In this document: positions 1 through 57,428 of the stretch, piece after piece | Layout of the letters: every line of letters begins with the position of its first letter | Numbering within the stretch: the first letter of the stretch is position 1 | DNA from: Eledone cirrhosa | Lineage: Eukaryota | Length of the DNA: 64,000 nucleotides | Direction: 5' to 3' | Assembly: GCA_964016885.1 (NCBI GenBank) | Contig: OZ024752.1 | Coordinates: 22,320,001-22,384,000, forward strand | The notes under the pieces: generated by a model | Told to the model about the DNA's origin: nothing | Seen by the model: only the letters and a program-made list of their open reading frames with translations | The model's database searches: none | Program-made: the position numbers and the translations under genes

Positions 1-111
1 TACACTGAGACAGGTCATAAAGAGGAACTCTACACTGAGACAGGTCATAAAGAGGAACTCCAAACTGAGACAGGTCATAAAGAGGAACTCTGGAATAATT
101 CAGTCATCCAG
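1..111 (+). CDS. OGFr-domain gene A, partial upstream exon with 30-bp coding repeat (YTETGHKEEL-type x3, then WNNSVIQ)
   Basis: Frame 1 is open and ends CAG|gtaaga at 111/112. Phase 0 matches the next exon at 6440. The exon runs off the left edge of the window. Confidence 0.6.
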
Positions 112-1019
112 GTAAGACACTTATGTTTAATAAGAAATATCTGAAAACTTTGCTGAGCCTCATTAATGAAAGATATATTCACTTTTCTAAAAAATAATTC
201 ATAGACAAAACGCCAGCACCAACAGTTTTGCAAGAGATGTCAACATGAATGGACCTGTTATTTTTATCTAAAGACATTTTTTCCAATTCCAACCCGCCCG
301 TCCCCTCAATCTATCTTATTTCTCATTCTTTCTTCTGATGAAGGACTAGCGTCCAAAACGTTAAGACCCTCTTCCTGCTATATCAAGCGTTAATCTAATA
401 TATCCCTTCCATATACTGTACTGATTGTGTTGTTATTTCTGTTTACCTTTTACTTATATATCTATATCTATATATATCATCATCATCATCATTTCATTTT
501 ACGTCCGCTTTTCCCTGCTCCCCCCCCCCCCCCTACATCATACTGGTTCGAGGCCAACCCCCCCCCCCCCCCTCTCTCTCCATATATAAGATAAATACTG
601 CAAGTACGAAAAATCAGAACAGCCAATTCCTATTCCGGATGGCTGCTTTCATGGCATAATGTAACATACAAATATTTCTTCATTCTTCTCACCATTTTAA
701 TTCCTTAGTCCATTCGTCATTCTCTATCATTTTCCCCCGAATCCAATCTTTGCCTTTCTACTCGATACTCTGTCGTATTTCCAAAACAAATCTTGTATTT
801 TTGTTTCATGCTTGTTAAATTATGCCCAAAATACGGGGATCTTATTTAAACCTTACCTTCTCGCTAACTACCCAATATCCCTCCCACCCGCCCCCACGCA
901 CCACCATTATTACGTGGACCAATCATAAGTCAGAGGCCTATACTATCACTTACCTGGTTGCCTTTCGATATGATGGATGGACTATGGAATTCTGGAGAGT
1001 TGAAAAGAAAAAACTGGAC

Positions 1020-4000
1020 GCTCAGTGACAATGCCAAAGATAAAGACAAATTCACCTCGTGGACGAGAATGCAAGCACTCCTCTTTGTTTCATCTGCGGA
1101 TGGCTAACATACCCCCCCCCCCCCGCGCCCCACCGCTCCCACCCTCCAAACGCAATCCAAAACTTCAGAGTTGGTACCATGAATGTAGGCACCACGAGGT
1201 TGTAGAAATGCTTGAACATAAGGAGGTCGATGTTTGTTGTATTCAATAGACCAGGTGGAGGGGTGGGTCTGCTAGATTCATCGTGGGTAAAGAACGATGC
1301 TATAAGCTTTTCTGGGTGGGAAATGACAATGGGCTGGGTGGAGTAGGATCATGGTAGCAGAAAAGTGGGCAGATAAGATAATAGATGTAAATAGAGTGAA
1401 CGACAGAATAATTAAAATAAGACTTGTCCTCAATAGAACTACGGTGACAGTAATATCTGCATACGCACCCCAATCCGGACTGCCCGGCACTATAAAAGAC
1501 AGATTCTATGAGACACTGATGCTCACTACCTCCCAAATAACCGACAGTGACTATATAATTATTGCAGGTGACCTAAATGGTCACGTTGGACAACGTTGTG
1601 ACGGCTATGACAGAATCCATGGAGGCTATGGGTTTGGTACTAGAAATGAGGAAGGCTCCAGAATGCTGGAATTCTGTGACGCAAATAACCTAACTATCTG
1701 TAACACTAACTTCAAAAAATGAGACAATCACTTGATCACCTATAGATTGGGGTAACACACAAGCCAGGTAGATTATATCCTTACCAGGAGACGTGACAGA
1801 GTGTCTGTTGTAAACACTAAATCCCTCCCCCATGAAGAATGCACGTCTCAACATAGCCTCATAATTAGCGACCTCATAGTCAGGACGAGACGTATTCGAC
1901 AACAGAAGAGGACTATCCTCAGGAGAAAAATATGGAAATTAAAGGACCCCACAACCAGTCATAAATTTAAAAGCATATTACTTGATGCTTTTGATAGTAA
2001 GGAAGAGCAATTAGAGTCGCACAATATAGAGGAACAGTGGGAATTCCTGAAAGCTAACCTGCTGAAGGCGACAGATGAAACCTGTGGCTGGAGCAGGCCT
2101 ATAGGCAGGAGGAGAGTAACTTGGTGGTGGAACAGTAAGGTGGAGAGGTCAATCAAGGTCAAAAAGCAGGCTTGGAAAGCATGGCGGGATGGAGGAAGTA
2201 GAGAAGACTATCAAGTGGCCAGGAGGGAAGCTAGGAGACAAGTGTACTTCGCAAGAAGGGAAGCAGAGGAAAGAAAGTTCAAGCATGTTCTACAACGCGA
2301 GGACCAAAAACGTGAGGTGTTCAGGATTGCTAGGCAATGTGTCAAGGAAAACAGTGATATTGTCGGGGAGAAGTGTGTCCTAAATGATGATGGTGTACTT
2401 GCCATCACTGACGCTGATAAGAAGGTAGCTTGGAAGTGTCACTACGAAAGTCTACTAAATGAGAAGAATAATTGGGAGAAAGAAAGTCTCCCCCACATCG
2501 ACCCAATAGAGGGACCAGCAGAGCAAGTTGAAGGTAGTATAATAAGTAAGGCGATCAAAGACATGAAGACGGGCAAGGCGGCCGGCCCTTCGGAAATAGT
2601 TGCCGAAATGCTGAAAGCATCTGGAACGGTGGGACACACTATGGTCACCCGGATAGTAAACCAAGTCATATAGAATGGGGTCGTTCCGAAGGACTGGCGT
2701 AGCATCATCATCATTAATTGCTACAAGGGTAAAGGTGATGCCCTAGATAGGGGAAACTATACAGGCATTAAATTAATTGACCAGGTCATGAAGGTCACAG
2801 AAAAAGTAATAGCGCAACTAATCAGATAGCGAATTGATCTAGATGAAATGCAGTTCGGGTTTGTGTCAGGTAAAAGTACAACAGATGCTCTTTTCATTGT
2901 ACGACAACTACAGGAGAAGTACCTAGCTAAAAGTAAACCCCTATACTTAGCTTTTGTTGACTTGGAGAAAGCCTTTGACAGAGTACCCCGCTCGATTAGC
3001 TGGTGGGCCCTTAGAAAACTAGGTGTTGATGAATGGCTTGTGAGAGCTATACAAGCCATGTATAAAGAAACAGTCAGCAAGGTTAGAATTAACAACGAAT
3101 ATAGTGAAGAGTTTAGCGTAAAAGTTGGTGTTCATCAGGGCTCCGTCCTTAGCCCCCTACTATTTATTATTGCCCTTCAGGCTATAACAGAGGAGTTCAA
3201 GACCGGCTGCCCATGGGAACTCCTATATGCAGATGATCTAACGCTCATAGCTGAATCAATGGCTGAACTAGAGAAGAAATTCCAAACATGGAAGCATGGC
3301 CTAGAATCAAAAGGCCTTAAAGTTAACTTGTCTAAGACTAAAGTTCTAGTTTGTAGGAAGGAAAATAGGGCACCGGTCCCATCTGGGAAATGGCCATGCT
3401 CAGTGTGTAGGAAAGGAATAGGTAGAAACTCCATTTTATGTCCCAAATGCAAAGTATGGGTACATAAAAGATGTAGTGGGATCACAGGTAAACTATCTAA
3501 GAATATAGATTTTATATGTGGCCGGTGCTCTGGTGCAATAAGTAGCAGCAAGTGCCCACAGAATACTAACTCATTCCATTGCACAGATGGTTCTATAGAA
3601 ATAGTGGACAGCTTCCGTTACCTGGGTGATAAAATCAGCAGTGGGGGAGGGTGCTCTGAAAGTACAGTAGCTAGGGTCAGAACGGGATGGAAAAAGTTCA
3701 GAGAGCTTATACCACTATTGGCCGCTAAAGGGTTCTCTCTAAAAATGAAAGGCAGGCTGTATGATGCCTGCATACGAACAGCAAAGTTACATGGCAGTGA
3801 GACCTGGACATTGTGTGGAGAGGATATACGCAGACTAGAGAGAAACAAAGCTTGCATGCTCCGCTGGATGTGTAATAGTAATATACGTGAACGGCAAAGC
3901 ATAAACGTACTAAGGGAGAAATTAGAAATAAGAGGGATCAGATGTTGTTTACTCGAGAGAAGACTACGTTGGTATGGTCACGTGATGCGCATGAAAGACG

Positions 4001-4569
4001 ACAGATGTATAAAAAAGTGCTGGGCAATAAAAATAGACGGTAGCCACGGAGTAGGCAGACCCAGAAAAATCTGGGACGACTTGATAAATTCCCACCTCAC
4101 ACACTTACACCTCTCCAAGACAATGTCACTCGACCGAGAGCTTTGGCGCTACACAGTAATAGAGAAGATCCGCCTTGCCTAAGTACAAAGTGAAATCTAC
4201 TACAGTCAGTAGGCACCTCTAACATAAATACACCCCGTCTCACTACCCCCACCCCATCCACACCAATGTAAAGTTATGTTGGTGTCACAACATCCAGCCC
4301 GAAACAAATGAGGTTGTGTAGGTGTCACGACAACAAAAACACAGTCCACGCTGTAATGTGGCCATGTAGGTAACACGGTAAAAACCTCCCAGTTCCACAC
4401 TGTAAATGTGGTTGGTGTTAGGAAGGGCATCCAGCCGTAGAAAACCCGCCAGACAGTCCTATGCGAGCAAGACAACCACTCTTGCCTCAAGTGGGAAAAC
4501 CCCCGTCCAAACCCATGCAAGCGTGGAATATGGACGTTAAACGATGATGATGATGATGATGATGATGAT
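1020..4569 (+). mobile_element. RTE-clade LINE, near full-length but decayed (APE endonuclease, RT, PHD-type finger, (GAT)n tail)
   Basis: Motifs SAYAPQ, GDLNGHVG, QFGF, FVDLEKAFD, GVHQGSVLSP, LLYADD and RRLRWYGHV. Several in-frame stops. 5' boundary approximate. Confidence 0.93.
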
Positions 4570-6439: not shown

Positions 6440-6542
6440 CCAATGATAAACAATCGTAAGCAAACATTCCCTGATTCGACTAAGGAAAAATGCTATCCAA
6501 ATCTGGAATTTTACAAAAATATCAGAAAATCTCAACCAAATG
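6440..6542 (+). CDS. OGFR-like: OGFr-domain gene A exon (PMINNRKQTFPDSTKEKCYPNLEFYKNIRKSQPNG)
   Basis: Acceptor tgtttag| and donor G|gtaagt. YPNLxFYxN...PNG matches the start of the OGFr_N domain. Confidence 0.85.
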
Positions 6543-8274: not shown

Positions 8275-8353
8275 GAGATCTTATAGAAAATATTTTAAAG
8301 AGCTGGTTTACCGACTACAAGAAACTGGAGGAACATCATGGCTATATCCAGTG
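8275..8353 (+). CDS. OGFR-like: OGFr-domain gene A exon (DLIENILKSWFTDYKKLEEHHGYIQW), GC donor
   Basis: Acceptor ttaccag|; carries the HxYIQW motif. At 79 nt it equals the paralogous exon 42660-42738. Donor is TG|gcaagt. Confidence 0.9.
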
Positions 8354-8703
8354 GCAAGTATTGATGTTTAGGCTACTTTGATTATGAGGAAAATACTTAT
8401 AGCTAATATATATATTTTACACCTCCCTTCCACTTCCGCCCACACCACCCTTACTCTGTAAAGTTATATTGGTACCACAAAACATCCAGTGGTCGTGTAG
8501 GAGACATGACAAAAAGCATCCAGCACACACAGTAAATGTGGTTGGCATTAGGAAGGGCATCCAGTCGTAGAAAACCAGCCAGAAATAGTCCTACATGAGC
8601 AAGACACGATCACCCGACTCAATTTGCCTCAAATGGGACAAACCCACTTAACCCATGCTAGCATGAAAAATAAATGTTAAACAATGAGGTTGATATATAT
8701 ATA

Positions 8704-12969: not shown

Positions 12970-13220
12970 AACTAGTACAACTATGTTGTTAGTCCGTTCA
13001 GTTTGAGGATGGTTCCAGATGATCTGTGGAGGCAGGTGCTGAAGAGGTTACTCCTTTTATTGATAACTTGAGCTCCCCTCTCGATTATTTCCATAATCTC
13101 GGTGACACACAAATCACACAAGTCATGTTCACCCCCTCTGTAGGGTTGGGCCGATGCTACCTTGGGCCACGGCATGGTGAATTCTAAGTTATCATGTTTG
13201 AGATGCCACACCAGTTCTGA
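12970..13220 (-). mobile_element. Penelope-like GIY-YIG C-terminal fragment
   Basis: W.LK.......W......PY......CDLC..E...I......INKR.....C.H, homologous to 47018-47200. Confidence 0.65.
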
Positions 13221-13276
13221 GGGGGCGGTGTTGTGTTTCTTATCAACCCTCTTAATGGTGTGGCAGTGATTGTACC

Positions 13277-16964: not shown

Positions 16965-17031
16965 GTTATTTCCCAATAGACATGAAGGTGTAAATCGTGA
17001 AGCTTTCTGTCTTGCTGATTATGAAGCTCAG
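16965..17031 (+). CDS. OGFR-like: OGFr-domain gene A exon (LFPNRHEGVNREAFCLADYEAQ)
   Basis: Acceptor atttag| and donor CAG|gtaaat. Completes the W-LFP..GVN motif in the correct phase. Confidence 0.9.
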
Positions 17032-19357: not shown

Positions 19358-19500
19358 ATGATATCAAGTGAGAAAGTTTTAAGGAATAGAGTGAGGAGAA
19401 GCTTCAAGATGATGCTGAATTTCTTTGGAATGGCTATGGATGATAGGTATCAGTTTTCTTTCACTTCACAGAAGAAAGCAAGAGTTAGAAATCTGAAAGA
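19358..19500 (+). CDS. OGFR-like: OGFr-domain gene A exon (MISSEKVLRNRVRRSFKMMLNFFGMAMDDRYQFSFTSQKKARVRNLK)
   Basis: Acceptor tttcag| and donor GA|gtaagt; MLxFFG motif. At 143 nt it equals paralogue exon 56566-56708. Confidence 0.9.
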
Positions 19501-28307: not shown

Positions 28308-28506
28308 AAACAGGCATAACTTTTTGAGGATCACCAGAATTCTGGTAGCCCTTGGAGAATTTGGTCTCACAGACGAACAGAGAAACTGGTTAGAATTCCT
28401 GAAGAAAATAGTCACTGATGGTATTCTGAATGAAGCTGCCTTTTCTTTGTATACATTCTGGATTCCAGCTGTAGAAGAATTCAGTTTTTGTTCGGAGTCC
28501 TACTAA
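28308..28506 (+). CDS. OGFR-like: OGFr-domain gene A terminal exon (NRHNFLRITRILVALGEFG...FWIPAVEEFSFCSESY*)
   Basis: Acceptor tttctag|; HNxLRITRILxxLG signature; TAA stop. The six exons total 702 nt in frame. Confidence 0.9.
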
Positions 28507-34708: not shown

Positions 34709-34786
34709 ATGATTGTACTCCCCTTATTGACCATATCGTTGATGTTCATTGTGGTATCACTTTTATTCAGGTATAAACCCCTAAAG
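34709..34786 (+). CDS. OGFr-domain gene B putative first coding exon, hydrophobic signal-anchor (MIVLPLLTISLMFIVVSLLFRYKPLK)
   Basis: caaaaATG start context and consensus donor AAG|gtaagt. Phase 0 joins the acceptor at 40812. Linkage is inferred, with no transcript evidence. Confidence 0.65.
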
Positions 34787-40811: not shown

Positions 40812-41046
40812 CCTTATATCATCCTGCCCATGGCCCCAATAGTGCAGATAACAACTGGATCTACACCTTTGCCACTTCACAATATGGTACATCGATATGG
40901 GAAGAAGTCCATGAAGAATAAAGCTATGATGATAGGGGATGTTGCACCAAGAGATGAGGCTATTTGTACACCATTTTGTCCATTTCAACAAAAGACCTAC
41001 CCAAATGTGAACTTTTACTCCAACATTCAACCATCACTTCCTAATG
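40812..41046 (+). CDS. OGFR-like: OGFr-domain gene B exon (PYIILPMAPIVQ...QKTYPNVNFYSNIQPSLPNG)
   Basis: Acceptor acccag| and donor G|gtaggt. YPNxxFYxN...PNG is homologous to exon 6440-6542. An alternative ATG lies at 40830. Confidence 0.8.
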
Positions 41047-42659: not shown

Positions 42660-42738
42660 GTGATTATATAGAAGAAATTTTGAAAAATTGGGCAAATAAT
42701 TTCAAAAAACTTCAACAACATAATGGATATATCCAATG
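42660..42738 (+). CDS. OGFR-like: OGFr-domain gene B exon (DYIEEILKNWANNFKKLQQHNGYIQW)
   Basis: Acceptor tttaaag| and donor TG|gtgagt; YIQW motif; 79 nt. Confidence 0.9.
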
Positions 42739-42879: not shown

Positions 42880-44228
42880 TCACTGGATTGTGATAGTTTT
42901 CATCTTCACCCTACAGACCCACACTCCCCCCCGGGCTAAACTCCTCACCCCTATTCCTTCAGCCTTCGGCCGCCCTGTTCTCCCCCCCCCCCACATATCC
43001 CCCACTAACACCACTAACACACTCCTCCTTTTCACCGCCCACCCCACAACTAACAATACTAACACCCCCACCCCACCCCCGACCACCCTCCCCCAACTAA
43101 CAATACTAACATCCTTTTTCTCCCCCCTCCCCCTATCACGCACACACACACCAGTACACTACACCCTCTCTACTGTCCCCCACACCTTTCTCTCTCTCTC
43201 CCCGCTCCACCCACACCCCTTCACACACACACACACACATTCCACTAACACCTCTACTAATACACCCCCCCTCCCCACTCCACCTTTCACACCTACCCAT
43301 CCTCTCCTCTGTCCACCGCACCTCCGCACACACTGACACACCGACTTTCTCCACCTGCCATTCTCCCCTACAGCTGCTATGCCCTGACCCCCTGACCACC
43401 TCTCCGCACACACAGACACACAACCCTCCTCCTGCCTTGACCCTCTGACCACTTCCTGTTGCGCGCGCCCCCACATCTCGCCTCTTCCGACCAACCCAAC
43501 CACGGATTACACACATTGGACATCGCTCCCACGAATCAACTCCATCACTAGGAAAATATCCGGCAACCCACCACACCCTCTACGGAACTACCTTAGGAAC
43601 TTACCCACGGACATAGACTAAAAAAAAAATGTTTTCCCATACGCCACCTACATCCACAATTCATATAAACACCACACACACGTGCGTACCCCCACATATT
43701 TACACACTCAGTCTCCGGAATCCTCTCTCCCCCTCCCCCCACCCTCTGACCCCTCCCCATCCACACACGAACACACACACCGACCTACACCCCACCCCAC
43801 ACACCTTTTCCTGAACATGGAACCCCGTTCTTCCCCCAACCCTCACATTCACATACACACACACACGTACACCTACACACACACACCACCTTCAGCCCTC
43901 CCCTCTCGGACACCCCGCCTCTCTCTCCCCACTCCACCCGCCACCACCCCTACACGCCCCACACCCTTCCACCACTTGTTTATCTTCATGTTTATTTTTA
44001 TTATGTTTTTCTATTTATTTTCATTTGTACCCCATCCACCGTTTCCTCGCACCCCATTTTTTCTAAATGTCTCTCTCCTACTCACCCTTGGAACTCTCTT
44101 CCCACACACTTTTCGCCTGAAGAAGGGCTTATGCCCGAAACGTCGTTCCCCCCGACCCCACCCTCAAGAGCGTGAAACTAATAAACCTTTGTTCATACTG
44201 CCTCTCTGTTTTGTTCTCGTTCCATTTT

Positions 44229-44232
<4 letters not shown>
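42880..44232 (+). mobile_element. C-rich Penelope-like remnant ending in a hammerhead motif (44117-44145)
   Basis: CTGAAGA-a-gggc(ttat)gccc-GAAACGTC followed by AATAAA and (TA)n. The same motif occurs in 51115-51600. Confidence 0.5.
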
Positions 44233-44269
<37 letters not shown>

Positions 44270-44319
44270 TGCAAGCAGGGAAGAGCGGACGTAAAATGAT
44301 GATGATATATATATATATA

Positions 44320-45682
44320 TACTAGGATCGGAATTAAGAGTATTCCGCAGTTCACAGTAATAATAACAATATTAGCTCAAAGAAGAATAGAGAATTTTCT
44401 TCTGAGCTCAGATACAAATATATTACACAAAGAGAAGTGTGTTACACAGTGAGATGTGTGTAAAGAATTATTACAAGTGATTTTTACCGTTACTGTCTAG
44501 AAAACAATATCTACAGGTTTAGCAATTAAATAGAAAAAAACCTAAGTCAGAATCCAATCTCTGAAGTAGAGTTTTAAATTACTAACCTTATAACTATAAG
44601 TTTGCTGATACGAATTAAGTTCGTTTCGCCACAGAAATGTGCAGTTTAACAGCCACTGGTTCATCAGTCAGCAAATGTGGATTCTGTTTACTACACATCT
44701 AACCTCATGGATAGAGAGAAAGCTAATATACACGCTGCCCAGGGTAGGGCGAAATCACGTGTTATTTGCATCAAATAACGGCTCTCATAGATTGGAGAAA
44801 ATGCTAGAGAGAGCAACCATTCGAATTTATTAGCTCAACAATTTGGAGCTCGTTAAGTATACTAGGATCGGAATTAAGAGTATTCCGCAGTTCACAGTAA
44901 TAATAATAATATTAGCTCAAAGAAGAATACAGAATTTTCTTCTGAGCTCAGATACAAATATATTACACAAAGTGAGAGCCGTTATTTGATGCAAATAACA
45001 CGTGATTTCGCCCTACCCTGGGCAGCGTGTATATTAGCTTTCTCTCTATCCATGAGGTTCGATGTGTAGTAAACAGAATCCACATTTGCTGACTGATGAA
45101 CCTGTGGCTGTTAAACTGCACATTTCTGTTGGGAAATGAACTTGATTTGTATCAGCAAACTTATAGTTATCATTTCATTTTTTTCATTTTACGTCTGCTT
45201 TTTCCCTGCTTACAAGGGTGGGACGGGAACTGATTCTGGCTTGATTTCTACAGCTGGATGCCCTTCCTAACACCAACCTCATTTACAGTGAGTGCTGGGT
45301 GCTTTTTTGTCGTGGCACCTCCACGACCACTTTGCAGTGGAATGATATGGACCCCAGTCCCTATCATCTCATTTCTACAGCTGAGTAAACTGGAGCAATG
45401 TGAAATAAAGTGTCTTGCTCAAGGAAACAACACATCACCCGGTCTGAGAATTGAACTCACAACCTTTCGATTGCAAGGCCAATGCTCTAACTACTAAGCC
45501 ATGTGCCTTATAAGGTTGGTAATTTAAAACTACTTCAGAGCTTGGATTCTGACTTAGATTTTTTTCTATTTAATTGCTAAACCTGTAGATATTGTTTTCT
45601 ATACAGTAACGGTAACAATCACTTGTAATAATTCTTTACACTCATCTCACTGTGTAACACACTTCTCTTTGTGTAATATATT

Positions 45683-45686
<4 letters not shown>
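44320..45686. mobile_element. Penelope-like pLTR tandem and inverted array with a CORE-like SINE inserted (45168-45508, minus)
   Basis: Direct repeat 44320-44431/44860-44971. 44973-45686 is an inverted copy of about 44414-44787. Flanked by (TA)n. Confidence 0.75.
44602..44674 (-). ncRNA. Type I hammerhead ribozyme (inverted copy at 45086-45158, plus strand)
   Basis: ttgctga-CTGATGA-...-GAAACgaa(cttaa)ttcGTA-tcagcaa: 7-bp stem I and 5-bp stem III. Confidence 0.75.
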
Positions 45687-45715
<29 letters not shown>

Positions 45716-46092
45716 GATAACAGATTATTGTTATAGGTAGTCCACTTATGTGTAGTCCAGTTAGGGTACTCCGAGTAGTGGATGATATCAACGCTTGGCT
45801 ACGTTTGACTCAACAAGGCGTTTCCATAGTGATGCTGCGAGTACGCGGTAATTTCTATGTTGTTAACACTTGGAATAATGATAAATCAAGAAAGAAGAGT
45901 GACACGGTTTGCTATACAATAAGGGCTTTATTCACATTGCTGACAATTGTTTCTCTGAACTGGTAGGTCTAGAGATCGCTACCCGCCTGTTTTCGCGTCA
46001 TTCGATCACCAATACATAGTTGTAACCAGTCAATTCATCAGAGCTATCGAGAATGAAGGGAATACACAGGCATGGCTTATATATATAGTAAT

Positions 46093-46279
46093 TGTTTCTA
46101 CTTTTGGCACAAGGCCATCAATTACCCAGTACATTACTGGTACTTTATTTTATCGACCCCGTAAGGATGAAAGGCAAAGTTAACCTCGGCGGGATTTGAA
46201 CTCAGACCGTAAAGGGAGGACGTAACTATGCTGGAAAGCATGGCGTCCGACTCTCTACCGATACCGCCAATCCACACCC
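46093..46279 (-). mobile_element. Nin-like SINE inserted in Penelope pLTR
   Basis: TSD ggcttatatatatagtaat at 46074-46092 and 46280-46298. Confidence 0.85.
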
Positions 46280-48493
46280 GGCTTATATATATAGTAATGG
46301 CATTCAATCAGAACAATAACAACAATACTAACAATGCTAGCAATAAATTATTTGAAATAATCACAACATCAATCTAAGTAAGACATAGAGTATACTCATG
46401 ACTTTAGCATATAAAACAAGCTGATATGAGGCAGATGTATGACATTGACATGTAAAAGCTGTTGTGGGGTGTATTATATAGTGTAGAGATAGGCCGGGGC
46501 TTTAAACAATCTACCATTTCCTTTACCGTAGGTCTGCTGACCGTAAGAATTATTTATTATCTGACAGATAAAATATTTAGCATTGTAGTGAGGATAGTAA
46601 TTTTTGTGGTGTGAAGTGGATTCAATATTTATGTGGTCTATATTAGATGAAGGGATTGTTAGTTTCAATCATGGGGTTGTTTAGCTTTCACATCATCAAT
46701 AACATACAAGTATAAGATAACATTAACAGAGTAGCAATATAATAGGTAAGTTAATACAGAGGTTAAGGAGGCAATATCCAAACCCATGCAAGCGTGGAAG
46801 ATGGACGTTAAACGATGATGAGAGAGAGAGAAAGCATGCTGACTACAATTATAACAACAGGAGGAAGGTGATGTTTTTCTGTGGTAGTATTCTGAAAATG
46901 TACTTGGATTTAGGTTAATAGTGTGGGTATGATATTTTGAATGCTAAGTTATGTTGGTTCGATTCACGGAGGCTTAAATCTTGTGAATTTAGTGGCTATC
47001 CTGTGTATGCAGAAAATTTATCTTTCTATCTTGTTGTTGAGTAGCCTTTTTTCATTCCTAAGGATATACAGTAATTCAAGATCACAGAGCCTACAGTAGG
47101 ACATACCGGTACTGTAAGCCCTTGCGGCCGACAAGTTCGACCAGTTGATATTGTAGTTGGTGTTATTGTCCTTAAGTTCCCAGATTTTTTTTGGCGAGGG
47201 TTGTAGAACCCATAAGTGCATGGTTCTACATCGAGTGTCTGTGCACATACCATCTTTTTTTAAAAGTACCCGCGGTGGATCCAATGTAATGCCAAGTGGA
47301 GTTGCCCGAGTTGACCGTACACATGTACACTAGGCTCGAATCAAGGCATCTATTCGCCAATGGGCACCTATCCGGTAGGTGACAGTTGCATTTTGAGGTG
47401 TTATTCCGTGCAGCTTCCACACTGCTGTTTTGTACACTGCTATAAGTGGGTTGTGATTCATGCCCGTTGAGGTTTTGCTGCTGCGTGCTTGTATGCGGTT
47501 GTGATACTGTGATGTGTTTATGTTTATAATTTGGTGCTATGTTGCGCATAGGTGGGGGTGGATTCCCTAGAGGTATTTCTGTGGTTGATCTTGCGTATGT
47601 GTGATTCTATATTTGCAGCCGTAGAGTATGAGAGTTTTATAGTTTTTCTATTGAGTATTTTATGATATCTGTGAAGTGTTTATCTATTAGTTTAAAGAAC
47701 GTAGAAGGCAGTCTAGTTTTTACAGAGGAGTTGAAGATTGGATTGAACCACAGGTATTTTCTTTCTCTGATTCTTCTATTGTTTCCAGGGTTTACATTAT
47801 TGGTGTTTGGACCACTTACTCTAGGTGCTATGTGCCTAACTCTATGTCTAGTCCTGTTACCTCTATTTTTGTGTGAGCGGTTGGTGTCATTGTTAGTAGG
47901 TTTGTTTAAGTTGTCTTTATTTGTTATAAACTGCAGCTTTTCTTTATGTCCGGCCCTATGTAATGCGGCGTTATAATAGTTAGCATATTCATTAAAAATT
48001 TCTAGGTTTGAGGATAAGCGTTATATTCTAAGGGATATACTACGTGCTATGGATCTGATTATGGATCTGGGGTGGTTTGAGTTATAACTAATGTAAGCCA
48101 GCTTGTCATTATTTTTGTGGAAGGGTTCTATTAATCCCGTATTTAGATTTAGACTCACATCTAGAAAGTTTACCTTTTTATGGTTCAGTTCGTAGGTGAT
48201 ACTTAGGCCTAGTTTTTTTAAGAATGTTCTAATGTTTTTTCTTAATCTTTCCATGCTCTGGTTGTTTAAGTTCCTAGCTATAAGGAGCGTGTCATCTCTA
48301 TAAATCCCTCCTTGGAGGTTACTGAATTCTTTATGTAGGCTGTGTGCTATAAATAGCCCCACGACGTCAGTGATTTGCGCAGAGTCATTTGATCCCATTG
48401 TGATATCGAAGCTTTTTATTCTATCTTTTCATACCCAGTAGCTATTTTCAAATTTTATGATAGTCCTTCTAGCCGCTATTATTATATCAATTT

Positions 48494-48707
48494 TAACATG
48501 TTGAACCCACATTGCAAATAAAGGGTGGTGGATTGGCAGTATCGGTAGAGGGTCGGACGCCATGCTTTCCAGCATAGTTACGTCCCTTTACGATCTGAGT
48601 TCAAATCCCGCCGAGGTTGACTTTGCCTTTCATCCTTACGGGGTCGATAAAATAAAGTACCAGTAATGCACTGAGTAATTGCTGGCCTTGTGCCTAAAGT
48701 AGAAACA
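48494..48707 (+). mobile_element. Nin-like SINE inserted in Penelope RT
   Basis: TSD attattatatcaattt at 48478-48493 and 48708-48723. Confidence 0.85.
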
Positions 48708-50434
48708 ATTATTATATCAATTTCCTCAGGGGTAAGATCGGAGTTATTTTGGGCAAATTTTGGATGCAGAGTAATCGTTTATATCAAATTGTATGAAGTT
48801 GCATGTCTCTCTATTTCTTATTTTATTGAACCATTCTATTACCTCGTTAGTGTTACCCCATAAATTGATTTCTAGTTTTCCCTTTATTTGTGCAATTACC
48901 CTATCTAGCATGTTCTTGCTAATTTTACCTATATCTGACTTAGAATGGCATATTAATCTCATAGTAGGGTTTGTTTCAAAATGATTTTTGTGATCCTTCA
49001 GGTTAAATGTGGGGTTGCATGGGGTTAGAGGCTCGGTCCTATCGGGTATTCCGAGTTTATTTACTATCCTAAGGCCCTCCACGTTAATGCTGGTGAGCGT
49101 GGATTCATTTGTTTTTTTGTATTTTTTGTGTAGTTCACGCTGAATAAAATTATTGTATGTGTTAAGGTCCATAGAATATACGTTTGATGTTTTGTCTGCC
49201 TTTACTATGATACCGTTGGTGTCTTTTAGTTATTTTAGTAGTGTGTTGATGTCATTTGGTAACTTGTTGTGGTGTGTTCTTTTTTTGAATTTAGTTCCAC
49301 TTATCATATTCATAAGGTCCAGCTCGAAGGCATCGAGTGTGGGGTTGTTTGGAGGGTTTTAGCAGGATTTGAATCCGTAATTCTCCTTAGAAAATTCTCT
49401 TGCGTTAATAGCTGGTCCTTTGTCGAAGTGGTAAGCCTTCCATCGGACCCTACGGATGAAATCATTAGTCCGTTGTATCATGCCTAGTGTATAGTCCTTA
49501 TTTGTAGCCATAGGTATGTTTTTCAGTGACATTCCTATACGGTGCTTTTCCATGTTGTTGCCGTGCGTTAATGGTGTTGCTCAACCAGGTGGGAGCTATG
49601 TATACGGGGTAACAGATTATTATTATAGGTAGTCCACTTAGATGTAGTACAGTTAGGGTACTCCGAGTAGTGGATGATATCAACGCTTGGCTAAGTTTGA
49701 CTCAACAAGGCGTTTCCATAGTGATGCTGCGAGTACGCAGTAATTTCAATGTTGTTAACACTTGGAGTAATGATAAATCAAGAAAGAAGTGTGACATGGT
49801 TTGCTATACAATAAGGGCTTTATTCACATTGCTGACAATTGTTTCTCTGAACTGGTAGGTCTAGAGATCGCTACCCGCCTGTTTTCGCGTCATTCGATCA
49901 CCAATACATAGTTGTAACCAGTCAATTCATCAGAGCTATCGAGAATGAAGGGAATACACAGGCATGGCTTCTATATATAGTAATGGCATTCAATCCTCAC
50001 TACAATGATAAATATTTTATCTGTCAGATAATAAATAATTCTTACGGTCACCAGACCTACGGTAAAGGAAATGGTAGATTGTTTAAAGCCCCGGCCTATC
50101 TCTACACTATATAATACACCCCACGACAGCTTTTACTCTATGTCTTACTTAGATTGATGCTGTAATTATTTCAAATAATTTATTGCTAGCATTGTTAATA
50201 TTGTTGTTAATGTTCTGATTGAATGCCATTACTATATATAGAAGCCATGCCTGTGTATTCCCTTCATTCTCGCTAGCTCTGATGAATTGACTGGTTACAA
50301 CTATGTATTGGTGATCGAATGACGCAGAAACAGGCGGGTAGCGATCTCTAGACCTACCAGTTCAGAGAAACAATTGTCAGCAATGTGATTAAAAACCTTT
50401 TTTGTATAGCAAACCGTGTCACTCTACTTTCTTG

Positions 50435-50480
<46 letters not shown>

Positions 50481-50637
50481 TCATTTTATTTAAGCTGAAT
50501 TTCACTTTGATGACCTTGTGACAAACAAGCAAAACTCCAGAGTAACAAGACTCATTATTTAGCCATAATAAAATGAATATAAAAACTACTTCAGTAATTG
50601 AGTATGCCTTTCTCTGTTGTCTACCATATACGGGTAT

Positions 50638-50669
<32 letters not shown>

Positions 50670-51114
50670 CAACGCTTACATGAACCTACATACATATATA
50701 TATATATATATGTGGACCTCCCAAAATTCGTTGGATTTTCTAATTAGATTTTCACCCCCAAACAAAATACACCACCCCGTCCCACTACCCCCACCCCATC
50801 CACACCACCCCTTTCTCTGTAAAGTTATGTTGGTACCACAACATCTAGTCCTAAATAAATGAGGTTGTGTAGGTGTCACGACAAAAAACACAGTCCACGC
50901 TGTAATGTAGCCGTGTAGGTAACACAGTAAAAACCTCTCAGTCCACACTGTAAACGTGGTTGGTGTTAGGAAGGGCATCCAGCCGTAGAAAACCTGCCAG
51001 ACAGTCCTATTCGAGCGAGACAACCAATCTTGCCTCAAGTGGGACAATTCCCGTCTAAACCCATACTAGCGTGGAAGATGGACGGTAAACGATGATGATG
51101 ATGATGATGATATT

Positions 51115-51600
51115 TATAAGTTAAAACAAAAAACAAAAACAATAACAAAGTGTGCAGTACAAAGTGTTAGTATTAGGTTCACGCTTGAGAGTGGGGGGTG
51201 GGGGGTCGTTTCAGGCATAAGCCCTTCATCAGGAGAAAGGTGGGAAGGGAAAGCGTTCCGAGGGTGTGAGGAGGAGTGGTGGAAAGACATTAAAAAGGGT
51301 AGTACAGGGGGAGAGAGAGACGGTGCTGGGTACAGTATGAGTGAGGGTAATATACTGGTGTGTGTGTCTGTGGTGGGATGTCGAATATGGGTGTGTGTGC
51401 GGGGGTAATCTCTACGGATGAAAGGGCTCACCAGAGACAGGGCCTGAGTCTTGAAGTCAGAATCTCGGCTGCAGAGGCAGCGTATCTGGAGGAGTAGGGA
51501 GTGGAGTGTTTGGTGTGTGTAGGAGGTCAAGTTGAGGTAGGAGTGGAGTTGGTGGGTTTGAGTAAGGTGGAGGTGATGAGGGAGTCGATGGCGACGGATA
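51115..51600 (-). mobile_element. Penelope-like fragment (RT thumb remnant plus hammerhead motif)
   Basis: SLLLQIRCLCSRDSDF...FIRRDYP, followed by CTGATGAagggcttatgcctGAAAC. Confidence 0.65.
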
Positions 51601-51622
51601 TATATATATATATGTATATATA

Positions 51623-54234
51623 TCATCATCATCATCATCACCGTTTTACGTCCGTTCTTCCACGCTAGCATGGGTTAGACGGGTTGTCCTGTTGTGGGCA
51701 GTGTCTGGTCGGCTGACCATGCCTTGTTCATACAGGAACTGATTTGGCTTGATTTTTACAGCTGGATGCCCTTCCTAACACCAACCTCATTTACAGTGAG
51801 TGCTGGGTGCTTTTTCGTTGTGCCTACATGTCCACTTTACAGTGTGGGCTGGGTGCTTTTTTGCCGTGGCACCTCCACGACCACCTTGCAGTGGTGGGTG
51901 TGGGGGCATATTGTCTATATGCTTCAGCTTGTACCCATGGGAGGTCGGGTACTCTGTATTACTGCGTGACGCCAGAGGTCACGGTCGTGAGTCATCGCCT
52001 TTGAGAGGTGTAATTGGGTAAGGTCAGCTTTTATCACCTCATCCCAGGTCATCTTGGGTCTCCTCACTCCGCAGTTTCCATCGACTTCTAGTGCTCTGCA
52101 CCTTTTTATGCAGCTGTCATCCTTCATACGCATCACATGTCCATACCAACGCAACCGCCTCTCCTGCACACACATTTGATTCCTCTTATGCTCAGTCTCT
52201 CTCTCAATTCATTTATGCTTTGTCGTTCGCGTATATTACTATTACACATCCATCGGAGCATGCAGGCTTCGTTTCTCTCTAATCTACGTAAGTCCTCCAC
52301 CTTCAGCGCCCAGGTCTCACTACCATGCAACATCGCTGTTCGGATACACGCATCATACAGTCTGCCTTTCATTTTGAGGGAGAAGCCTTTTGCAGCTAGC
52401 AGTGGTAGTAATTCCCTAAACTTCTTCTATCCCGTTCTTACCCTAGTTATTGTACTTTCTGAACACCCACCTCCGCTGCTAATTCGGTTGCCTAGGTAGC
52501 AGAAGCTGTCTACTGTTTCTACAGAGCCCTCCCAGAGATTGGTGGTACTTGTTTCCTGTGGCTGTTTGCTGCTTGCTGTCCCAGCACAGCTGCTGCATGT
52601 GAAGCCTACATTCTTAATTAAGCTTCCTGAGATCCCGCTACATCTCTTGTGTACCCATTGTTTGCATTTGGGGCAGAGAATGGAGTTCCTACCTACACCT
52701 TTCCTACATACTGAGCAAGGCCATTTCCCTGAGGGGATCTGGGTTCTGTTTTCTCGTCTACTTACAAGGACCTTAGTCTTTGTCATGTTGACTTTGAGAC
52801 CCTTTCTTTCTAGTCTCTGCTTCCAAGTTTGGAATTTCTTCTCTAGTTCTACCATAGATTCAGCTATAAGTGCGAGGTCATCAGCATACAGGAGTTCCCA
52901 TGGGCATCCGGTCTTAAACTCCTCCGTTATTGCCTGCAGGACTATGATCAACAGGAGGGGGCTAAGAACAGAGCCCTGGTGGACCCCAACATGTACGCTA
53001 AATTCCTCGCTATACTCATTGCTAATCCTAACTTTGCTGACTGCTCCCCTATACATGGTTGTACCGCTTTCACAAGCCATTCATCTACTCCTAGTTTTCT
53101 AAGAGCCCACCAGATGACAGCACGTGGAACTCTGTCAAAGGCTTTCTCAAGATCGACAAATGCCAGGTAGAGTGGCTTACTTTTAGCTAGGTACTTTTCC
53201 TGTAACTGCCTCACAAGGAAGAGGGCATCAGTGGTGCCTCTTCCTGGTACAAACCCAAATTGCATCTCGTCTAGTTTCACCCGGTCCCTAATCAACTGTG
53301 CTATAACTCTTTCTGTTACTTTCATGACCTGGTCCATCAGCTTTATACCTCTATAGTTTCCTCTATCTAGTGCATCACCTTTACCTTTGTAGCAGTTGAC
53401 AATGATGCTACTGCACCAATCTTTTGGTATGACACCTTCTAGTATTACCTGGTTAACAATACGTGTGGTTATAGTGTGACCTACAGACCCAGATGCCTTC
53501 AGCATCTCGGCAGCTATACCTGATGGACCGGTTGCCTTCCCCATCTTCATATCTTTGATTGCCTTACTTACTATGCTGCCCCCTCTATAGGGTCTACTTG
53601 GGGTAGGGTCTCTTCTTCCCATGCATTCTCCTCATTTAGTAATCTATCATAATGACTCTTCCATGCATCTTTCTTCTCAGCACTTGTGAGGGCAAGCTCA
53701 CCTTTATCATTCCGGATACACTTCTCTCCAATGACATCACAATTCTCTCTGACACACTGCCTCGCAATCTTGAACACCTCCTGTTTCTGGTCCTCATGTT
53801 GCAAAACATGCTTGAATTTTCTATCCTCTGCTTCCCTCCTAGCTAAGTATACTTGTCGCCTAGCTTCCCTCTTGGTCTCTATGTAATGTACCCTGCTCAC
53901 CCCGTTCTTCCATTCTTTCCATGCCTGTCTCTTGGCCTTAACTACCTCATCTACCTTATTGTTCCACCACCAAGTCACTCTCCTCCTGCTTGTGGTCTTA
54001 CTCCAGCCACAGACCTCATCCGTCGCCTCTAGTAAGTTATTTTTTAGGAACTCCCAGTTATCTTCTACATTGAATGTCTGTATCTGTTCTTCTTTACTGT
54101 CGTAGGCATTGAGTAAAATATCTTTAAATCTGTTACTGGCTGAGGGGTCTTTCAGCTTCCAGATCTTTCTTCTCCAGGTTGGCCTCTGTTTCCAGGTTCG
54201 TCTAGTTCTGACTGTGAGGTCGCTGACAACTAAG
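51623..54234 (-). mobile_element. RTE LINE, 5'-truncated and frameshifted
   Basis: TWWWN, NYRGIKL, QFGF, DLEKAFD, LLYADD, PHD finger, RRLRWYGHV and a (CAT)n tail. Confidence 0.93.
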
Positions 54235-54250
54235 CTATATATATATATAT

Positions 54251-54382
54251 ATAGGAAAAAGTATGATCCCGACAGCAGAGCTCAAGCCGTTTCGACGGTT
54301 ATTTCTGGACTGAGGTATTTCAGTCCAGAAATAGCCGTTGAAACGGCTTGAGCTCTGCCGTCGGGGTCATACTTTTTCCTAT
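54251..54382. repeat. Near-perfect hairpin with arms of about 62 bp
   Basis: ataggaaaaagtatga...ctggactga / tcagtccag...tcatactttttcctat. It contains a GAAACggc..gccGTC hammerhead half. Confidence 0.85.
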
Positions 54383-54752
54383 TTCCCTCTCTACTACCCT
54401 AAGTATTGGGTACTTTGGTGCATTATGGTCCATCTGGTTCCTTACCACAATTCCTTTGTTATATAAATTTATATATATATGTATATATATATATATAAAT
54501 TTGAGCAACTTCCACAATGTGTGTGTGTATTTGTGTGAATGTATGTCTGTGAGTGTGTATTTTTGTAAGTGTGTCTGTGTTTGCATGTTTATATTTGTAT
54601 ACTCATATATATAAATGTATGCATATGCACATATACACATATGCGTCAGCATGTTGAAAAATTTCTAGTATATATATAATAGCACAGTGGACCAGGTTTT
54701 AGTGTAGGGATGGTATGTTTTGTCTCGTGTTAATTTTTGTTTTTTATTTCAG

Positions 54753-54822
54753 GTTATTTCCAATCCCGAGAATCAGCAAAACTAACAGATATGCTCAACC
54801 AATAACAGAAGAAGAGAGAGAT
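54753..54822 (+). CDS. OGFR-like: OGFr-domain gene B exon (LFPIPRISKTNRYAQPITEEERD)
   Basis: Long pyrimidine tract and tttcag|; donor GAT|gtgaga; LFP..N..A.P.T..E motif. Confidence 0.9.
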
Positions 54823-55187
54823 GTGAGAGTTGTCACCATTATATATTTACACAACATTCTGTGGTTGTTTTTATTGGTTTCAGTTATTGGACAATAGCCA
54901 TGATGATATATCACATTCAACAGATTTATTTAGTTAGTCATATCAACCCCAGTAGTTATTTAACCAATCTCTTTTTGTCAGACTGTTATGTTATAGGCTA
55001 TAAGAAAACAAGCACACACATACACATTGTGCTTGTTTGCTTACGTCAGCAAACAGAAGTTTGATGAGCTTTTCATTCCAGAGTCGGGCCTGATCAATAG
55101 AGATGGAACCTTGAGCTGATCAGTCGTGAAACGTGTGTCACACCTGAATAAACTTAATGAAAATTTGACATCTCATCCACACTTATT

Positions 55188-55565
55188 AGTATCGGGAGAT
55201 GGTCGGACGCCATGCTTTGCAACATAGAGTTACACCCCTTTACGGTCTGAGTTCAACTCCCGTCGAGGTTAACTTTGCCTTTCATCCTTTCGGGGTCGAT
55301 AAAATAAAGTACCAGTAATGCACTGGGATAATTGCTGGCCTTGTGCCAAAAGAAGAAACAATTATTATTATTACTGGTGGATTGGCAGTATTGGTAGAGG
55401 GTCAGACGCCATGCTTTGCAGCATAGAGTTACAGGCCTTTATGGACTGAGTTCAACTCCCATCGAGGTTAACTTTGCCTTTCATCATTAAGGGGTCGATA
55501 AAATAAAGTACCAGTAATGCACTGGGATTATTGCTGACCTTGTGCCAAAAGTAGAAACAATTATT
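55188..55565 (+). mobile_element. Two tandem Nin-like SINEs
   Basis: Same family sequence as 20556-20746. Confidence 0.85.
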
Positions 55566-55690
55566 ACTATTACACTCTGCTTAGTACAGCCCCAAAATAC
55601 ATTCTGGAGACTACACAGCGAGTCCTCATTTTGGTGAACCAACAGTAACTTGGTGTTACAATCCCTAAACTATATATATATATATATATA

Positions 55691-55985
55691 TATTCATTAG
55701 TTAAGCAAAACAAGACCACAAATTTCACAACATTATTAAAAGATTGTCAACATATTTTAGTTTGATGTAAGGAATGTAGAGAATAATAATAATATTAATA
55801 TGGAGTAGCGAAACAATTGTAAACGGACATTATTGTAAACAATTGTAAACAATTGTAAACAATTATTATTAATATTATTATTATTATTCTCTACATTCCT
55901 TACATCAAACTAAAATATGTTGACAATCTTTTAATAATGTCTTCCTTGTGAAATTTCTGGTCTTGTTTTGCTTAACTAATGAATA
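55691..55985. repeat. Inverted repeat with arms of about 110 bp
   Basis: tattcattagttaagcaaaacaagacc... versus ...ggtcttgttttgcttaactaatgaata, next to (TA)n. Confidence 0.8.
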
Positions 55986-56150
55986 TTTCCAGCTCTGTGC
56001 GCCTAACTTCTGCATGAACCCAGCCACCTAGCTGCTTTCTACTGCATATTGCACATTGAGCACATGCCTTTATGCTTTGGCTTCTAACTAATTCACCAAT
56101 CTCTCCTCTCCTATCTCCATCTCTCTCTTTAAGATTGGTTACTCTTGAAC

Positions 56151-56193
<43 letters not shown>

Positions 56194-56565
56194 ATATCAT
56201 GATCATGATCTTAATCATGTACCTTGGTCAATTTGGCGAAATCATGAGAGATTCCTTCTTTGGAATGGTTTCTATAGCTGGATACTCTTCCTGATATCAA
56301 CTACTTTACAGAGTGTACTGGGTGTATTTTATCATGGCTCCAGTAAGAGGTAGATAACTGATTATAAAACAACTAAATATTCCACCCCACATTCACCTTT
56401 TTTTAGTTCATTCAAGTTACTATAGCACACACATACACACACTCACACATATAATGCACACAAACACATACACAACACAAACACACACACACATACACAC
56501 AATACATTTGTCCTGAACCTTTATAGTTTAAAGTTTACACTGTAAATTTTGTTCACCTATTTCAG

Positions 56566-56708
56566 ATCTTTCGCAGCCAGCCTATTCTCAGAAGTAGAGT
56601 TCTGCAGTCTTTTAAAATAATGCTGAGATTCTTTGGTATACAAATGACTGATCCATACCAGTTTGGACATTATCCTAACTACCGTGAAAGATTTGATTAC
56701 CTCCAAAA
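56566..56708 (+). CDS. OGFR-like: OGFr-domain gene B exon (IFRSQPILRSRVLQSFKIMLRFFGIQMTDPYQFGHYPNYRERFDYLQ)
   Basis: Acceptor tttcag| and donor AA|gtattt; MLxFFG and NYxERF motifs; 143 nt. Confidence 0.9.
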
Positions 56709-57217
56709 GTATTTAGCAAAGTTTTATTCACTTCAGTAATAGCAACTTTCCATTAGTCCTCAGTCTTCCGTAATCACATTCTTACCAATCCGGCCTATTC
56801 TATGAAATAAAACCATCCATTTTAAAGGTTTCTAATTTAAATTAAAATCTTCCAACATAATTTTATATAAGAGTCTTACACATTACTATATTAGTGCTTT
56901 TTATTGTGACACCAAAACAACCAACTAACAGGTTAGACTGGATAGTTTTCCTTCGTGTTACCAGCATGACCACCTTACAGGGTGGACCAGGTGCTTTTTG
57001 TCATGTCACCAACTAGCTGTTAAATCATTACCCAAAAAGGACCTGCAAGGCTAACTTCTGCTTTAGCAGAGAAAATGCCAATAAAACGTCTGTTGCGTTA
57101 TTGCATCATTAATTTTACCAAAGGTGTTCTTCCCTCTGTTCCTCATTTGCTATAAAATATATATGATAGTGCCTTACTAGTGTACCAAATTTCACTATGT
57201 AACTTCTTTTATTTCAG

Positions 57218-57428
57218 ACATCCAAACAACTACAAACGAATCACAAGAATGATAGAATCTCTCAGATATTTGGACTTCAAACCACATATACTATATTTCA
57301 TCAGATTTCTTGCATATATGGTCAGATATGATTTGCTACCAATGGCTGAGGAATCAATAAACAAGTACTGGATTCCTCAACTATGTAAACATGAACAATA
57401 TCAATTGCAACAATTACTTGACTTTTAA
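57218..57428 (+). CDS. OGFR-like: OGFr-domain gene B terminal exon (HPNNYKRITRMIESLRYLDF...YWIPQLCKHEQYQLQQLLDF*)
   Basis: Acceptor tttcag|; NxxRITR motif; TAA stop. Total CDS is 816 nt, 271 aa. Confidence 0.9.

What the first reader, a model, noticed from the sequence alone, without database searches (positions are those of the whole stretch)
1..57428. Tandem, strongly diverged OGFr-like gene pair with identical intron architecture but different N-termini
Seen: both genes have the same intron phases (0,1,2,0,2) and matching exon sizes (79/79, 67/70, 143/143 nt), yet their proteins differ at many positions. One has a repeat-containing N-terminus and the other a hydrophobic anchor. Both frames are intact amid heavily decayed transposons. 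Inference: an old tandem duplication retained by selection, possibly part of a larger cephalopod OGFr family cluster.
Basis: partly seen in the sequence, partly recalled or inferred. Interest (0 to 1): 0.7.

Follow-up and report, generated by a model that had tools for sequence, protein, structure and literature searches.

The report
Intact and disarmed OGFr gene pair
Two neighbouring, unbroken copies of a poorly understood gene (the 'opioid growth factor receptor' family) match genes already annotated in octopuses; one keeps the family's most conserved residues, while the other has swapped them out and carries a predicted membrane anchor, so it is likely a non-catalytic, membrane-tethered partner whose changes would point to the family's unknown active site.

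Summary
The pair is real. Two six-exon OGFr_N (PF04664) models lie head to tail with intron phases 0,1,2,0,2. They are 42% identical over 171 aa, and synonymous sites are saturated. Each gene has its own orthologue (about 65% domain identity) in Octopus, where a third paralogue sits on the same chromosome.

Two of its points are weaker. The shared introns are expected of a duplicate. Gene A is cut by the window edge, so its N-terminus is unseen, and its orthologues start with a hydrophobic or amphipathic helix.

Gene B and its orthologues replace a Glu/His/His set, kept in 136-143 of 148 non-cephalopod domains, with Gln/Asn-or-Ser/Asn, while staying under purifying selection. Best reading: A is an active enzyme-like copy and B a membrane-tethered pseudoenzyme.

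The activity is unknown. An ADP-ribose link, which this scan noted earlier on a bacterial homologue, got only weak support here. No RNA holder was listed. Ten literature searches found no description of the cluster. Verdict: new variant of a known family, modest interest.

The parts
1..111 (+). Gene A, 5'-truncated coding exon with three 30-nt (10-aa) repeats; donor phase 0
   Evidence: repeat stretch matches O. sinensis P0006 230-270 (E 7e-6)
6440..6542 (+). Gene A exon (103 nt), start of the OGFr_N domain; phase 1
   Evidence: matches Argonauta P0007 44-77
8275..8353 (+). Gene A exon (79 nt) with conserved Glu90 and His93 (numbering of the partial model); GC donor; phase 2
16965..17031 (+). 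Gene A exon (67 nt); phase 0
19358..19500 (+). Gene A exon (143 nt); phase 2
28308..28506 (+). Gene A last coding exon with conserved His171, ending in the stop codon
   Evidence: (PF04664, E 5e-6)
34709..34786 (+). Gene B first coding exon: ATG, hydrophobic residues 2-20, then basic residues (predicted signal anchor); phase 0
   Evidence: orthologues P0001 and P0002 start alike; topology is inference
40812..41046 (+). Gene B exon (235 nt): linker and start of the domain; phase 1
42660..42738 (+). Gene B exon (79 nt) with Gln123 and Asn126 in place of the family Glu and His; phase 2
54753..54822 (+). Gene B exon (70 nt), loop one residue longer than in A, same length as in Octopus paralogue C; phase 0
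56566..56708 (+). Gene B exon (143 nt); phase 2
   Evidence: (PF04664, E 1e-7)
57218..57428 (+). Gene B last coding exon with Asn205 for the family His and Lys208 for Leu, ending in the stop codon; AATAAA or ATTAAA signal at 57457

Best explanation
Two intact OGFr_N-family genes lie in tandem: gene A keeps the family's near-invariant Glu/His/His residues and is likely an active enzyme-like copy, whereas gene B has Gln/Asn/Asn there, carries a predicted N-terminal membrane anchor and is likely a catalytically dead binder or regulator kept by selection. Steps: (1) shown: both frames are open, each has its own Octopus orthologue, and B's replacements are shared with those orthologues. (2) Inferred: the pair arose by tandem duplication inside a cephalopod gene cluster, before this species split from Octopus. 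(3) Inferred: polar residues kept from phages and bacteria to vertebrates form an active site, possibly metal-binding, so the domain is an enzyme and not only a peptide receptor. (4) Inferred: size-preserving Glu-to-Gln and His-to-Asn swaps remove the chemistry but keep the fold and pocket; the anchor, with basic residues on its C-terminal side, would hold B's domain on the cytosolic face of a membrane, where it would bind the substrate or an active paralogue. (5) Speculative: the substrate is an ADP-ribose or NAD-derived group. My odds: old selected duplication 0.9; B non-catalytic given that the family is enzymatic 0.7; ADP-ribose chemistry 0.3.
For: Gene models and 42% identity; pS 0.80 and pN 0.40 between A and B. 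Orthologues at 64.6% (A-P0006) and 64.8-65.3% (B-P0001/P0002) domain identity, so both genes have diverged from Octopus about equally. Clades A 99/97 with Argonauta and B 100/100; all cephalopod-type rows 94/92 under LG+G4 after dropping 16 of 54 rows. Octopus cluster: P0001, P0006 and P0156/P0158 on a 135,913,566-base O. sinensis contig; XP_036359307-9 (B) next to XP_036359310-11 (C); CAI9722422.1 (C) next to CAI9722423.1 (A). Glu kept in 143 of 148, first His in 136 of 148, second His in 143 of 148 non-cephalopod domains; A keeps 40 of 44 conserved columns, B 31 of 44. In 104 bacterial and viral domains the same Glu, His and His are 97, 97 and 100% conserved. Of 129 single-domain non-cephalopod proteins, 123 keep all three. 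Six of 11 proteins with several domains pair an intact first domain with a second that lost at least two of the three, so intact-plus-degenerate pairs recur. The B-type model keeps the same helices at pLDDT above 90 in the domain. pN/pS of B's last exon is 0.23 (3 synonymous, 3 replacement), 0.29 (7, 8) and 0 (3, 0) against runs X4, X6 and X7. ADP-ribose-related neighbours lie within two genes in 5 of 26 viral loci (PARP twice, ART-PolyVal, Deltex WWE/DTC, NUDIX), and 1 of 17 long bacterial proteins is fused to a microbial PARG domain.
Against: No activity is described for the family in the papers I saw, and no solved relative was found, so 'catalytic' rests on conservation alone. I could not measure whether the three residues meet in one pocket. 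The first His in the bacterial set is biased, because the scan pattern required it. The B-type model was built from the family alignment, so it is not independent evidence of the fold. With the LG+C20 model and long-branch rows kept, the cephalopod clade dissolves, and B with the vertebrate-like clade is not rejected (p-AU 0.088). The pN/pS counts are small, cover one exon, and use only the differences the tool listed (15 of 25 for X6, 3 of 8 for X7). In bacteria, ADP-ribose or NAD families made up 3 of 70 adjacent same-strand ORFs against 2 of 84 distant ORFs: no clear enrichment. The two PARP phages are related, and the viral count has no control. Gene order and distances in Octopus are inferred from accessions and contig length, not read from DNA.
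Confidence: 0.55

Rival explanations
1. B is not dead but re-specified: it is still an enzyme, or binds a different ligand, with Gln/Asn/Asn/Lys forming a new site.
For: The new residues are fixed across B orthologues (Gln, Asn or Ser, Asn, Lys). The neighbouring Gln, Asn, Arg, Thr and Arg are kept. After a long stem (0.6), B diverges from Octopus no faster than A.
Against: The first His position varies (Asn or Ser) among B orthologues, as expected of a relaxed site. Other degenerate copies lose the same positions to unrelated residues such as Pro, Thr or Ile, which looks like repeated loss, not one new chemistry.
Confidence: 0.22
2. The domain is a non-enzymatic peptide receptor, as the name and the vertebrate literature hold, and A and B differ in ligand or location.
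For: OGFr is described as a nucleus-associated receptor (PMC5876317, passages), and OGFRL1 as a potential orphan receptor of largely unknown function (PMC11062026, passages).
Against: The same polar residues are conserved in bacteria and viruses. Opioid precursors had no representative in the O. vulgaris transcriptome although an OGFR did (PMC12919962, passages).
Confidence: 0.1
3. A and B belong to separate, much older orthogroups and are neighbours through an ancient linkage, not a cephalopod duplication.
For: A-B identity (39.7%) is about the level of each gene's best non-orthologous hits (49% for A, 39% for B). A+B monophyly is neither shown nor rejected (p-AU 0.257), and deep nodes are unresolved under the mixture model.
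Against: The LG+G4 trees hold all cephalopod-type rows together (83/94 with two long-branch intruders; 94/92 without). No B-type protein outside Octopus appeared among the best 150 of 1,888 hits.
Confidence: 0.1
4. B is a decaying duplicate under relaxed selection.
For: It lost 13 of 44 conserved columns.
Against: Its frame is open in this species and in two Octopus species (91% domain identity between them). Synonymous sites against A are saturated, and pN/pS is 0-0.29.
Confidence: 0.03

Closest known systems
Octopus 'opioid growth factor receptor-like protein 1' gene models: A-type XP_029636202.1, CAI9722423.1 (and Argonauta GAB1598532.1); B-type XP_036359307-9.1, XP_014770404-5.1; C-type XP_036359310-11.1, XP_014770397/398/401.1, CAI9722422.1
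   Same: Orthologues of both genes, with the same motif states, the same anchor on the B type and a repeat-rich region in the O. sinensis A type.
   Different: Only about 65% domain identity. They are automatic annotations that give all paralogues nearly the same name; I found no paper on the cluster or on the lost residues. The C type is not in this window.
Vertebrate OGFR and OGFRL1 (Pfam PF04664 OGFr_N)
   Same: Same domain; gene A keeps the family motifs. Exon sizes of 79, 67 and about 146-149 nt in the human genes are recalled, not tested.
   Different: The vertebrate-like rows form their own clade (100/100; identified by the OGFr_III repeat on P0095 and by Pfam score, not by name). Gene B has an N-terminal anchor and lacks the Glu/His/His set.
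Two-domain OGFr_N proteins with an intact and a degenerate copy (P0012, P0013, P0014, P0016, P0017, P0018)
   Same: An intact domain paired with one that lost the same residues.
   Different: Those are fused in one chain; here the two are separate genes, and the degenerate one is anchored.
DUF1810 / Rv1873 fold (PF08837, PDB 2jek)
   Same: Structural match over most of the small chain: Z 7.0, rmsd 4.3, 124 of 140 aligned for the A-type model; Z 5.6, rmsd 4.4, 123 aligned for the B type. Profiles align the His-x-x-x-Trp-x-Phe-Pro motifs in register over 52 columns.
   Different: The Z scores are within the noise for helical proteins. The profile match is weak (probability 2%, E 0.02), and at least 1 of 30 block shuffles scored higher. 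A lead only.

Membership tests
OGFr_N domain family (PF04664) | Match to the Pfam model above its curated cut-off | tested here: met
   Single exons score 26.6 (A) and 32 bits (B) against a cut-off of 22; orthologues score 133-158 bits.
OGFr_N domain family (PF04664) | Near-invariant Glu, His and His of the two motifs: gene A | tested here: met
   E90, H93 and H171 present.
OGFr_N domain family (PF04664) | Near-invariant Glu, His and His of the two motifs: gene B | tested here: not met
   Q123, N126 and N205; same loss in P0001 and P0002. B is a divergent member by profile, not a canonical one.
Vertebrate OGFR orthologue | Groups with OGFR in a tree; C-terminal OGFr_III repeats | tested here: not met
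   Both genes lie outside the vertebrate-like clade; A with it is rejected (p-AU 0.012), B with it is not (0.088). Both proteins end just after the domain.
Vertebrate OGFR orthologue | Met-enkephalin binding and nuclear import | not testable with these tools
   Needs binding and localisation assays.
Vertebrate OGFRL1 orthologue | One-to-one grouping with OGFRL1 | tested here: not met
   The OGFR-like and OGFRL1-like rows group with each other (100/100), apart from A and B; row identities are inferred, not named.
Tandem paralogues of one cephalopod cluster | Adjacent, same strand, shared intron positions | tested here: met
   6.2 kb from A's stop to B's start; introns 2-5 at aligned residues.
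Tandem paralogues of one cephalopod cluster | Cephalopod monophyly | tested here: inconclusive
   94/92 under LG+G4, unresolved under LG+C20 with long branches.
Pseudoenzyme | Loss of catalytic residues with fold and selection kept | tested here: inconclusive
   Loss of conserved residues and purifying selection are shown; that they are catalytic is not.
DUF1810-like fold or ADP-ribose-processing enzyme | Significant structural or profile match; enriched gene context | tested here: inconclusive
Signal-anchored (single-pass) membrane protein: gene B | N-terminal hydrophobic helix with basic residues on one side | tested here: met
   Hydropathy 2.76, charge 0 before and +3 after; helix 2-22 in the orthologue model. 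A cleaved signal peptide was not excluded.

The most novel reading that the evidence does not exclude
OGFr_N is an unrecognised metal-dependent enzyme, shared by phages, bacteria, giant viruses and animals, that removes or processes ADP-ribose. Cephalopods expanded it into a cluster of active and membrane-tethered dead copies, and the dead copies mark the active site (Glu, His, His). That would recast human OGFR and the cherubism gene OGFRL1 as enzymes and make their activity directly testable.
Probability: 0.22. Interest if true: 0.75.

Novelty: new variant of a known kind. Interest (0 to 1): 0.36.

Why it matters
The gene pair itself is ordinary: orthologues are already annotated in Octopus, and tandem paralogues with shared introns are common. 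Its value is as a natural mutagenesis experiment. The molecular activity of this domain is described as largely unknown even for human OGFRL1, whose loss was found in recessive cherubism families (PMC11062026, passages). A selected paralogue that swaps Glu, His and His for Gln, Asn and Asn names three residues to test and supplies a matched intact/dead pair from one species. It also shows a cephalopod cluster in which membrane-anchored and degenerate copies recur, which the ten literature searches did not find described.

Tried and rejected
Flanking search with the OGFr_N HMM: no whole genome is held, so the region upstream of the window, gene A's true start and any C-type gene could not be read.

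Expression: no RNA holder listed; this says nothing either way. Laying four runs on 40000-58000 was swamped by repeats and showed no spliced joint among those listed. X2 covers gene B's last exon with no difference but may be the source of this DNA. The GC donor was not checked against reads.

A-B binding: the complex predictor was not available, so binding is untested.

Structure: no PDB match by sequence or profile or by Foldseek. In the viral library only a Marseillevirus OGFr protein was significant; a WWE-domain mimivirus protein came second at E 0.15, not significant. The ESM Atlas gave no usable hit outside PF04664 and only PF04664 clusters for P0001. DUF1810 was found in 0 of 35 genomes with OGFr_N against 12 of 151 in a phylum sample; too few to claim exclusion.

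An apparent Gly-to-Lys change in B I reject as an alignment artefact: B's loop is one residue longer, and its Ser matches the Ser of the bacterial members.

No ADP-ribose-related fusion turned up in 131 eukaryote-type hits scanned with Pfam (102, 29; 20 shorter hits were not scanned).

dS between A and B cannot be computed (pS 0.80).

Literature: one search was too broad and gave nothing; others (OGFr + macrodomain; OGFR + cephalopod + gene family expansion) returned 0 papers; the listings showed no title or abstract on the domain's chemistry. Supplements were not opened; gene tables of the octopus and squid papers could list these paralogues.
Full report
Observation. Splice-bounded exons were found by scanning and by tblastn with Octopus proteins, then joined in a script. 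Gene A (1-28506, 5' end outside the window) gives 233 open codons, and gene B (34709-57428) a 271-aa protein. Both have intron phases 0,1,2,0,2 and exons of 79/79, 67/70 and 143/143 nt; introns 2-5 fall at aligned residues. Gene A intron 3 has a GC donor. The proteins share 71 of 171 residues. Between them pS is 0.80 (saturated) and pN 0.40, and blastn of the two gene regions gave 76 hits, none on an exon of A. A family HMM on six frames finds five exon segments per gene and no third gene.

Relatives. Gene B's last exon finds only Octopus sinensis P0001 and O. bimaculoides P0002 (72% and 69%). Gene A's last exon finds O. sinensis P0006 and Argonauta P0007 (71% and 60%). Domain identities are 64.6% for A-P0006, about 65% for B-P0001/P0002 and 35-40% across types. 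The window therefore most likely comes from an octopod outside the Octopus species in these databases (inference). A third Octopus paralogue, C (P0038 cluster), turned up among the best 150 of 1,888 hits. In O. sinensis A, B and C share a 135,913,566-base contig. B and C have consecutive RefSeq accessions there and near-consecutive ones in O. bimaculoides, and C and A are consecutive in O. vulgaris. Sepia pharaonis CAE1264556.1 and CAE1264559.1 share a 1,070,506-base contig. A cephalopod cluster is thus supported, though gene order was inferred from accessions.

Tree. With LG+G4 on 54 domains, cephalopod-type rows plus two long-branch intruders form a clade at 83/94. After dropping 16 rows (long branches, second domains, a near-duplicate and distant outgroups) the 16 cephalopod-type rows hold at 94/92, with A at 99/97 including Argonauta, B at 100/100, and a Sepia-containing group at 100/97 whose unnamed Logan members I take as squid or cuttlefish by grouping only. 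The vertebrate-like rows form a separate 100/100 clade. Against this, LG+C20 on 42 rows leaves the deep nodes open. AU tests reject A with the vertebrate-like clade (0.012) but not B with it (0.088); B with C is present but weak (68/54). The duplication predates the split from Octopus; its exact depth is open.

N-termini. Gene A begins inside three 10-aa repeats that resemble residues 230-270 of P0006 (E 7e-6). P0006 has about 265 residues before the domain and starts with a moderately hydrophobic stretch; the Argonauta protein has a short N-terminus with a predicted helix. Gene B's hydrophobic residues 2-20 followed by basic residues recur in its orthologues. Anchors also occur in C, in Sepia P0067 and in P0035, the last two with intact motifs. 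A type III signal anchor with the domain in the cytosol follows from the positive-inside rule (established knowledge, applied by inference).

The main result. Among 148 non-cephalopod domains a Glu is kept in 143, a His in 136 and a second His in 143. Gene A has all three; gene B and its orthologues have Gln, Asn or Ser, and Asn. A keeps 40 of 44 conserved columns and B 31. The same three positions are 97-100% conserved in 104 bacterial and viral domains, with the caveat that the bacterial scan required the first His. C, P0079 and P0021 are degenerate in other ways, and 6 of 11 proteins with several domains pair an intact with a degenerate copy. B remains under selection: its frame is open in three species, and the listed differences in its last exon give pN/pS of 0.23, 0.29 and 0 against runs of three other organisms (small counts, partial lists, split codon left out). 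Models of an A-type and a B-type orthologue have the same helical layout at high confidence.

Mechanism. Conservation of polar residues across all these groups, and their replacement by same-size neutral residues, is the usual signature of an enzyme and its dead paralogue (established knowledge; the labels are not from a call). I commit to A as the active copy and B as a membrane-tethered non-catalytic binder or regulator, at 0.55. The chemistry is not shown. For: PARP (two related phages), ART-PolyVal, Deltex WWE/DTC and NUDIX genes lie within two genes in 5 of 26 viral loci (31 found, 5 near-duplicates dropped), and one of 17 long bacterial proteins carries a PARG domain. Against: adjacent bacterial ORFs gave 3 of 70 (of 152 neighbours listed, only same-strand and mostly non-redundant ones were scanned), distant ORFs 2 of 84 (of 98 listed). 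The structural lead to DUF1810/Rv1873 (Z 7.0, rmsd 4.3, 124 aligned) is within helical noise, and the profile test was weak. I put ADP-ribose chemistry at 0.3.

Literature. Ten searches. Passages read: PMC12919962 reports one OGFR and no opioid precursors in the O. vulgaris transcriptome; PMC11062026 calls OGFRL1 function largely unknown; PMC5876317 summarises the nuclear-receptor view; 10.1101/2021.11.23.469661 reports OGFr captured in the pol frame of amphibian retroviruses; 10.1101/2024.10.31.621237 reports one ogfr gene up-regulated in bobtail squid under warming and CO2; PMC12730205 links OGFR level to PARP-inhibitor sensitivity, with no enzymatic claim in the passages seen. None of these passages describes the cluster, the degenerate paralogues or a catalytic site. 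The library lacks most subscription papers, and supplements were not opened.

Verdict. A real, old and selected tandem pair of a known family, already annotated as gene models in Octopus. The shared introns are unremarkable. What is new is the anchored paralogue that lost the family's conserved Glu/His/His set. New variant of a known kind; interest 0.36.

Noticed in passing
window 8353-8355: Gene A intron 3 uses a GC donor where gene B has GT; the flanking bases fit the donor consensus well. Not checked against reads.
   Followed up: partly
window 31569-31996 and 55690-55986: Long near-perfect inverted repeats (145-nt arms, 97%; 71- and 41-nt arms, 97-98%), one between the genes and one in a gene B intron; foldback or MITE-like.
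   Followed up: no
window 61992-63998 (-): Gypsy-type pol (RNase H, integrase) open for 669 aa to the window end, so fairly young.
   Followed up: partly
window 1327-4179 (+), 13.3-15.7 kb, 21.3-23.7 kb (-), 51.9-54.2 kb (-): Four copies of a LINE with endonuclease and reverse transcriptase; the first carries a PHD-finger match after the RT.
   Followed up: partly
window 47229-49580 (-), 24110-24700 (+), 12984-13289 (-): Broken ORFs that look like Penelope-type elements with a GIY-YIG-like motif; the label is recalled, and Pfam gave no hit.
   Followed up: no
window 17779-18769 and 24697-27279: A 30-nt minisatellite (33 copies, 94%) and a 14-nt satellite (184 copies) in gene A introns create long spurious ORFs.
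   Followed up: no
L085:25-3915, L089:1036-3564, L105:118-4101: Long viral proteins with a C-terminal OGFr_N domain, two of them directly after a UBA domain; the rest has no Pfam or NCBIfam hit.
   Followed up: partly
L012:2960-4555: Chlamydiae MAG protein fusing a microbial PARG (TIGR02452-type) domain to OGFr_N.
   Followed up: partly
L001, L006, L009, L021 upstream ORFs: In four alphaproteobacterial loci the OGFr_N gene follows an Hsp20 gene on the same strand.
   Followed up: no
P0013, P0017 (unnamed Logan proteins): Two-domain members of the Sepia-containing clade with an intact first and a degenerate second domain.
   Followed up: partly
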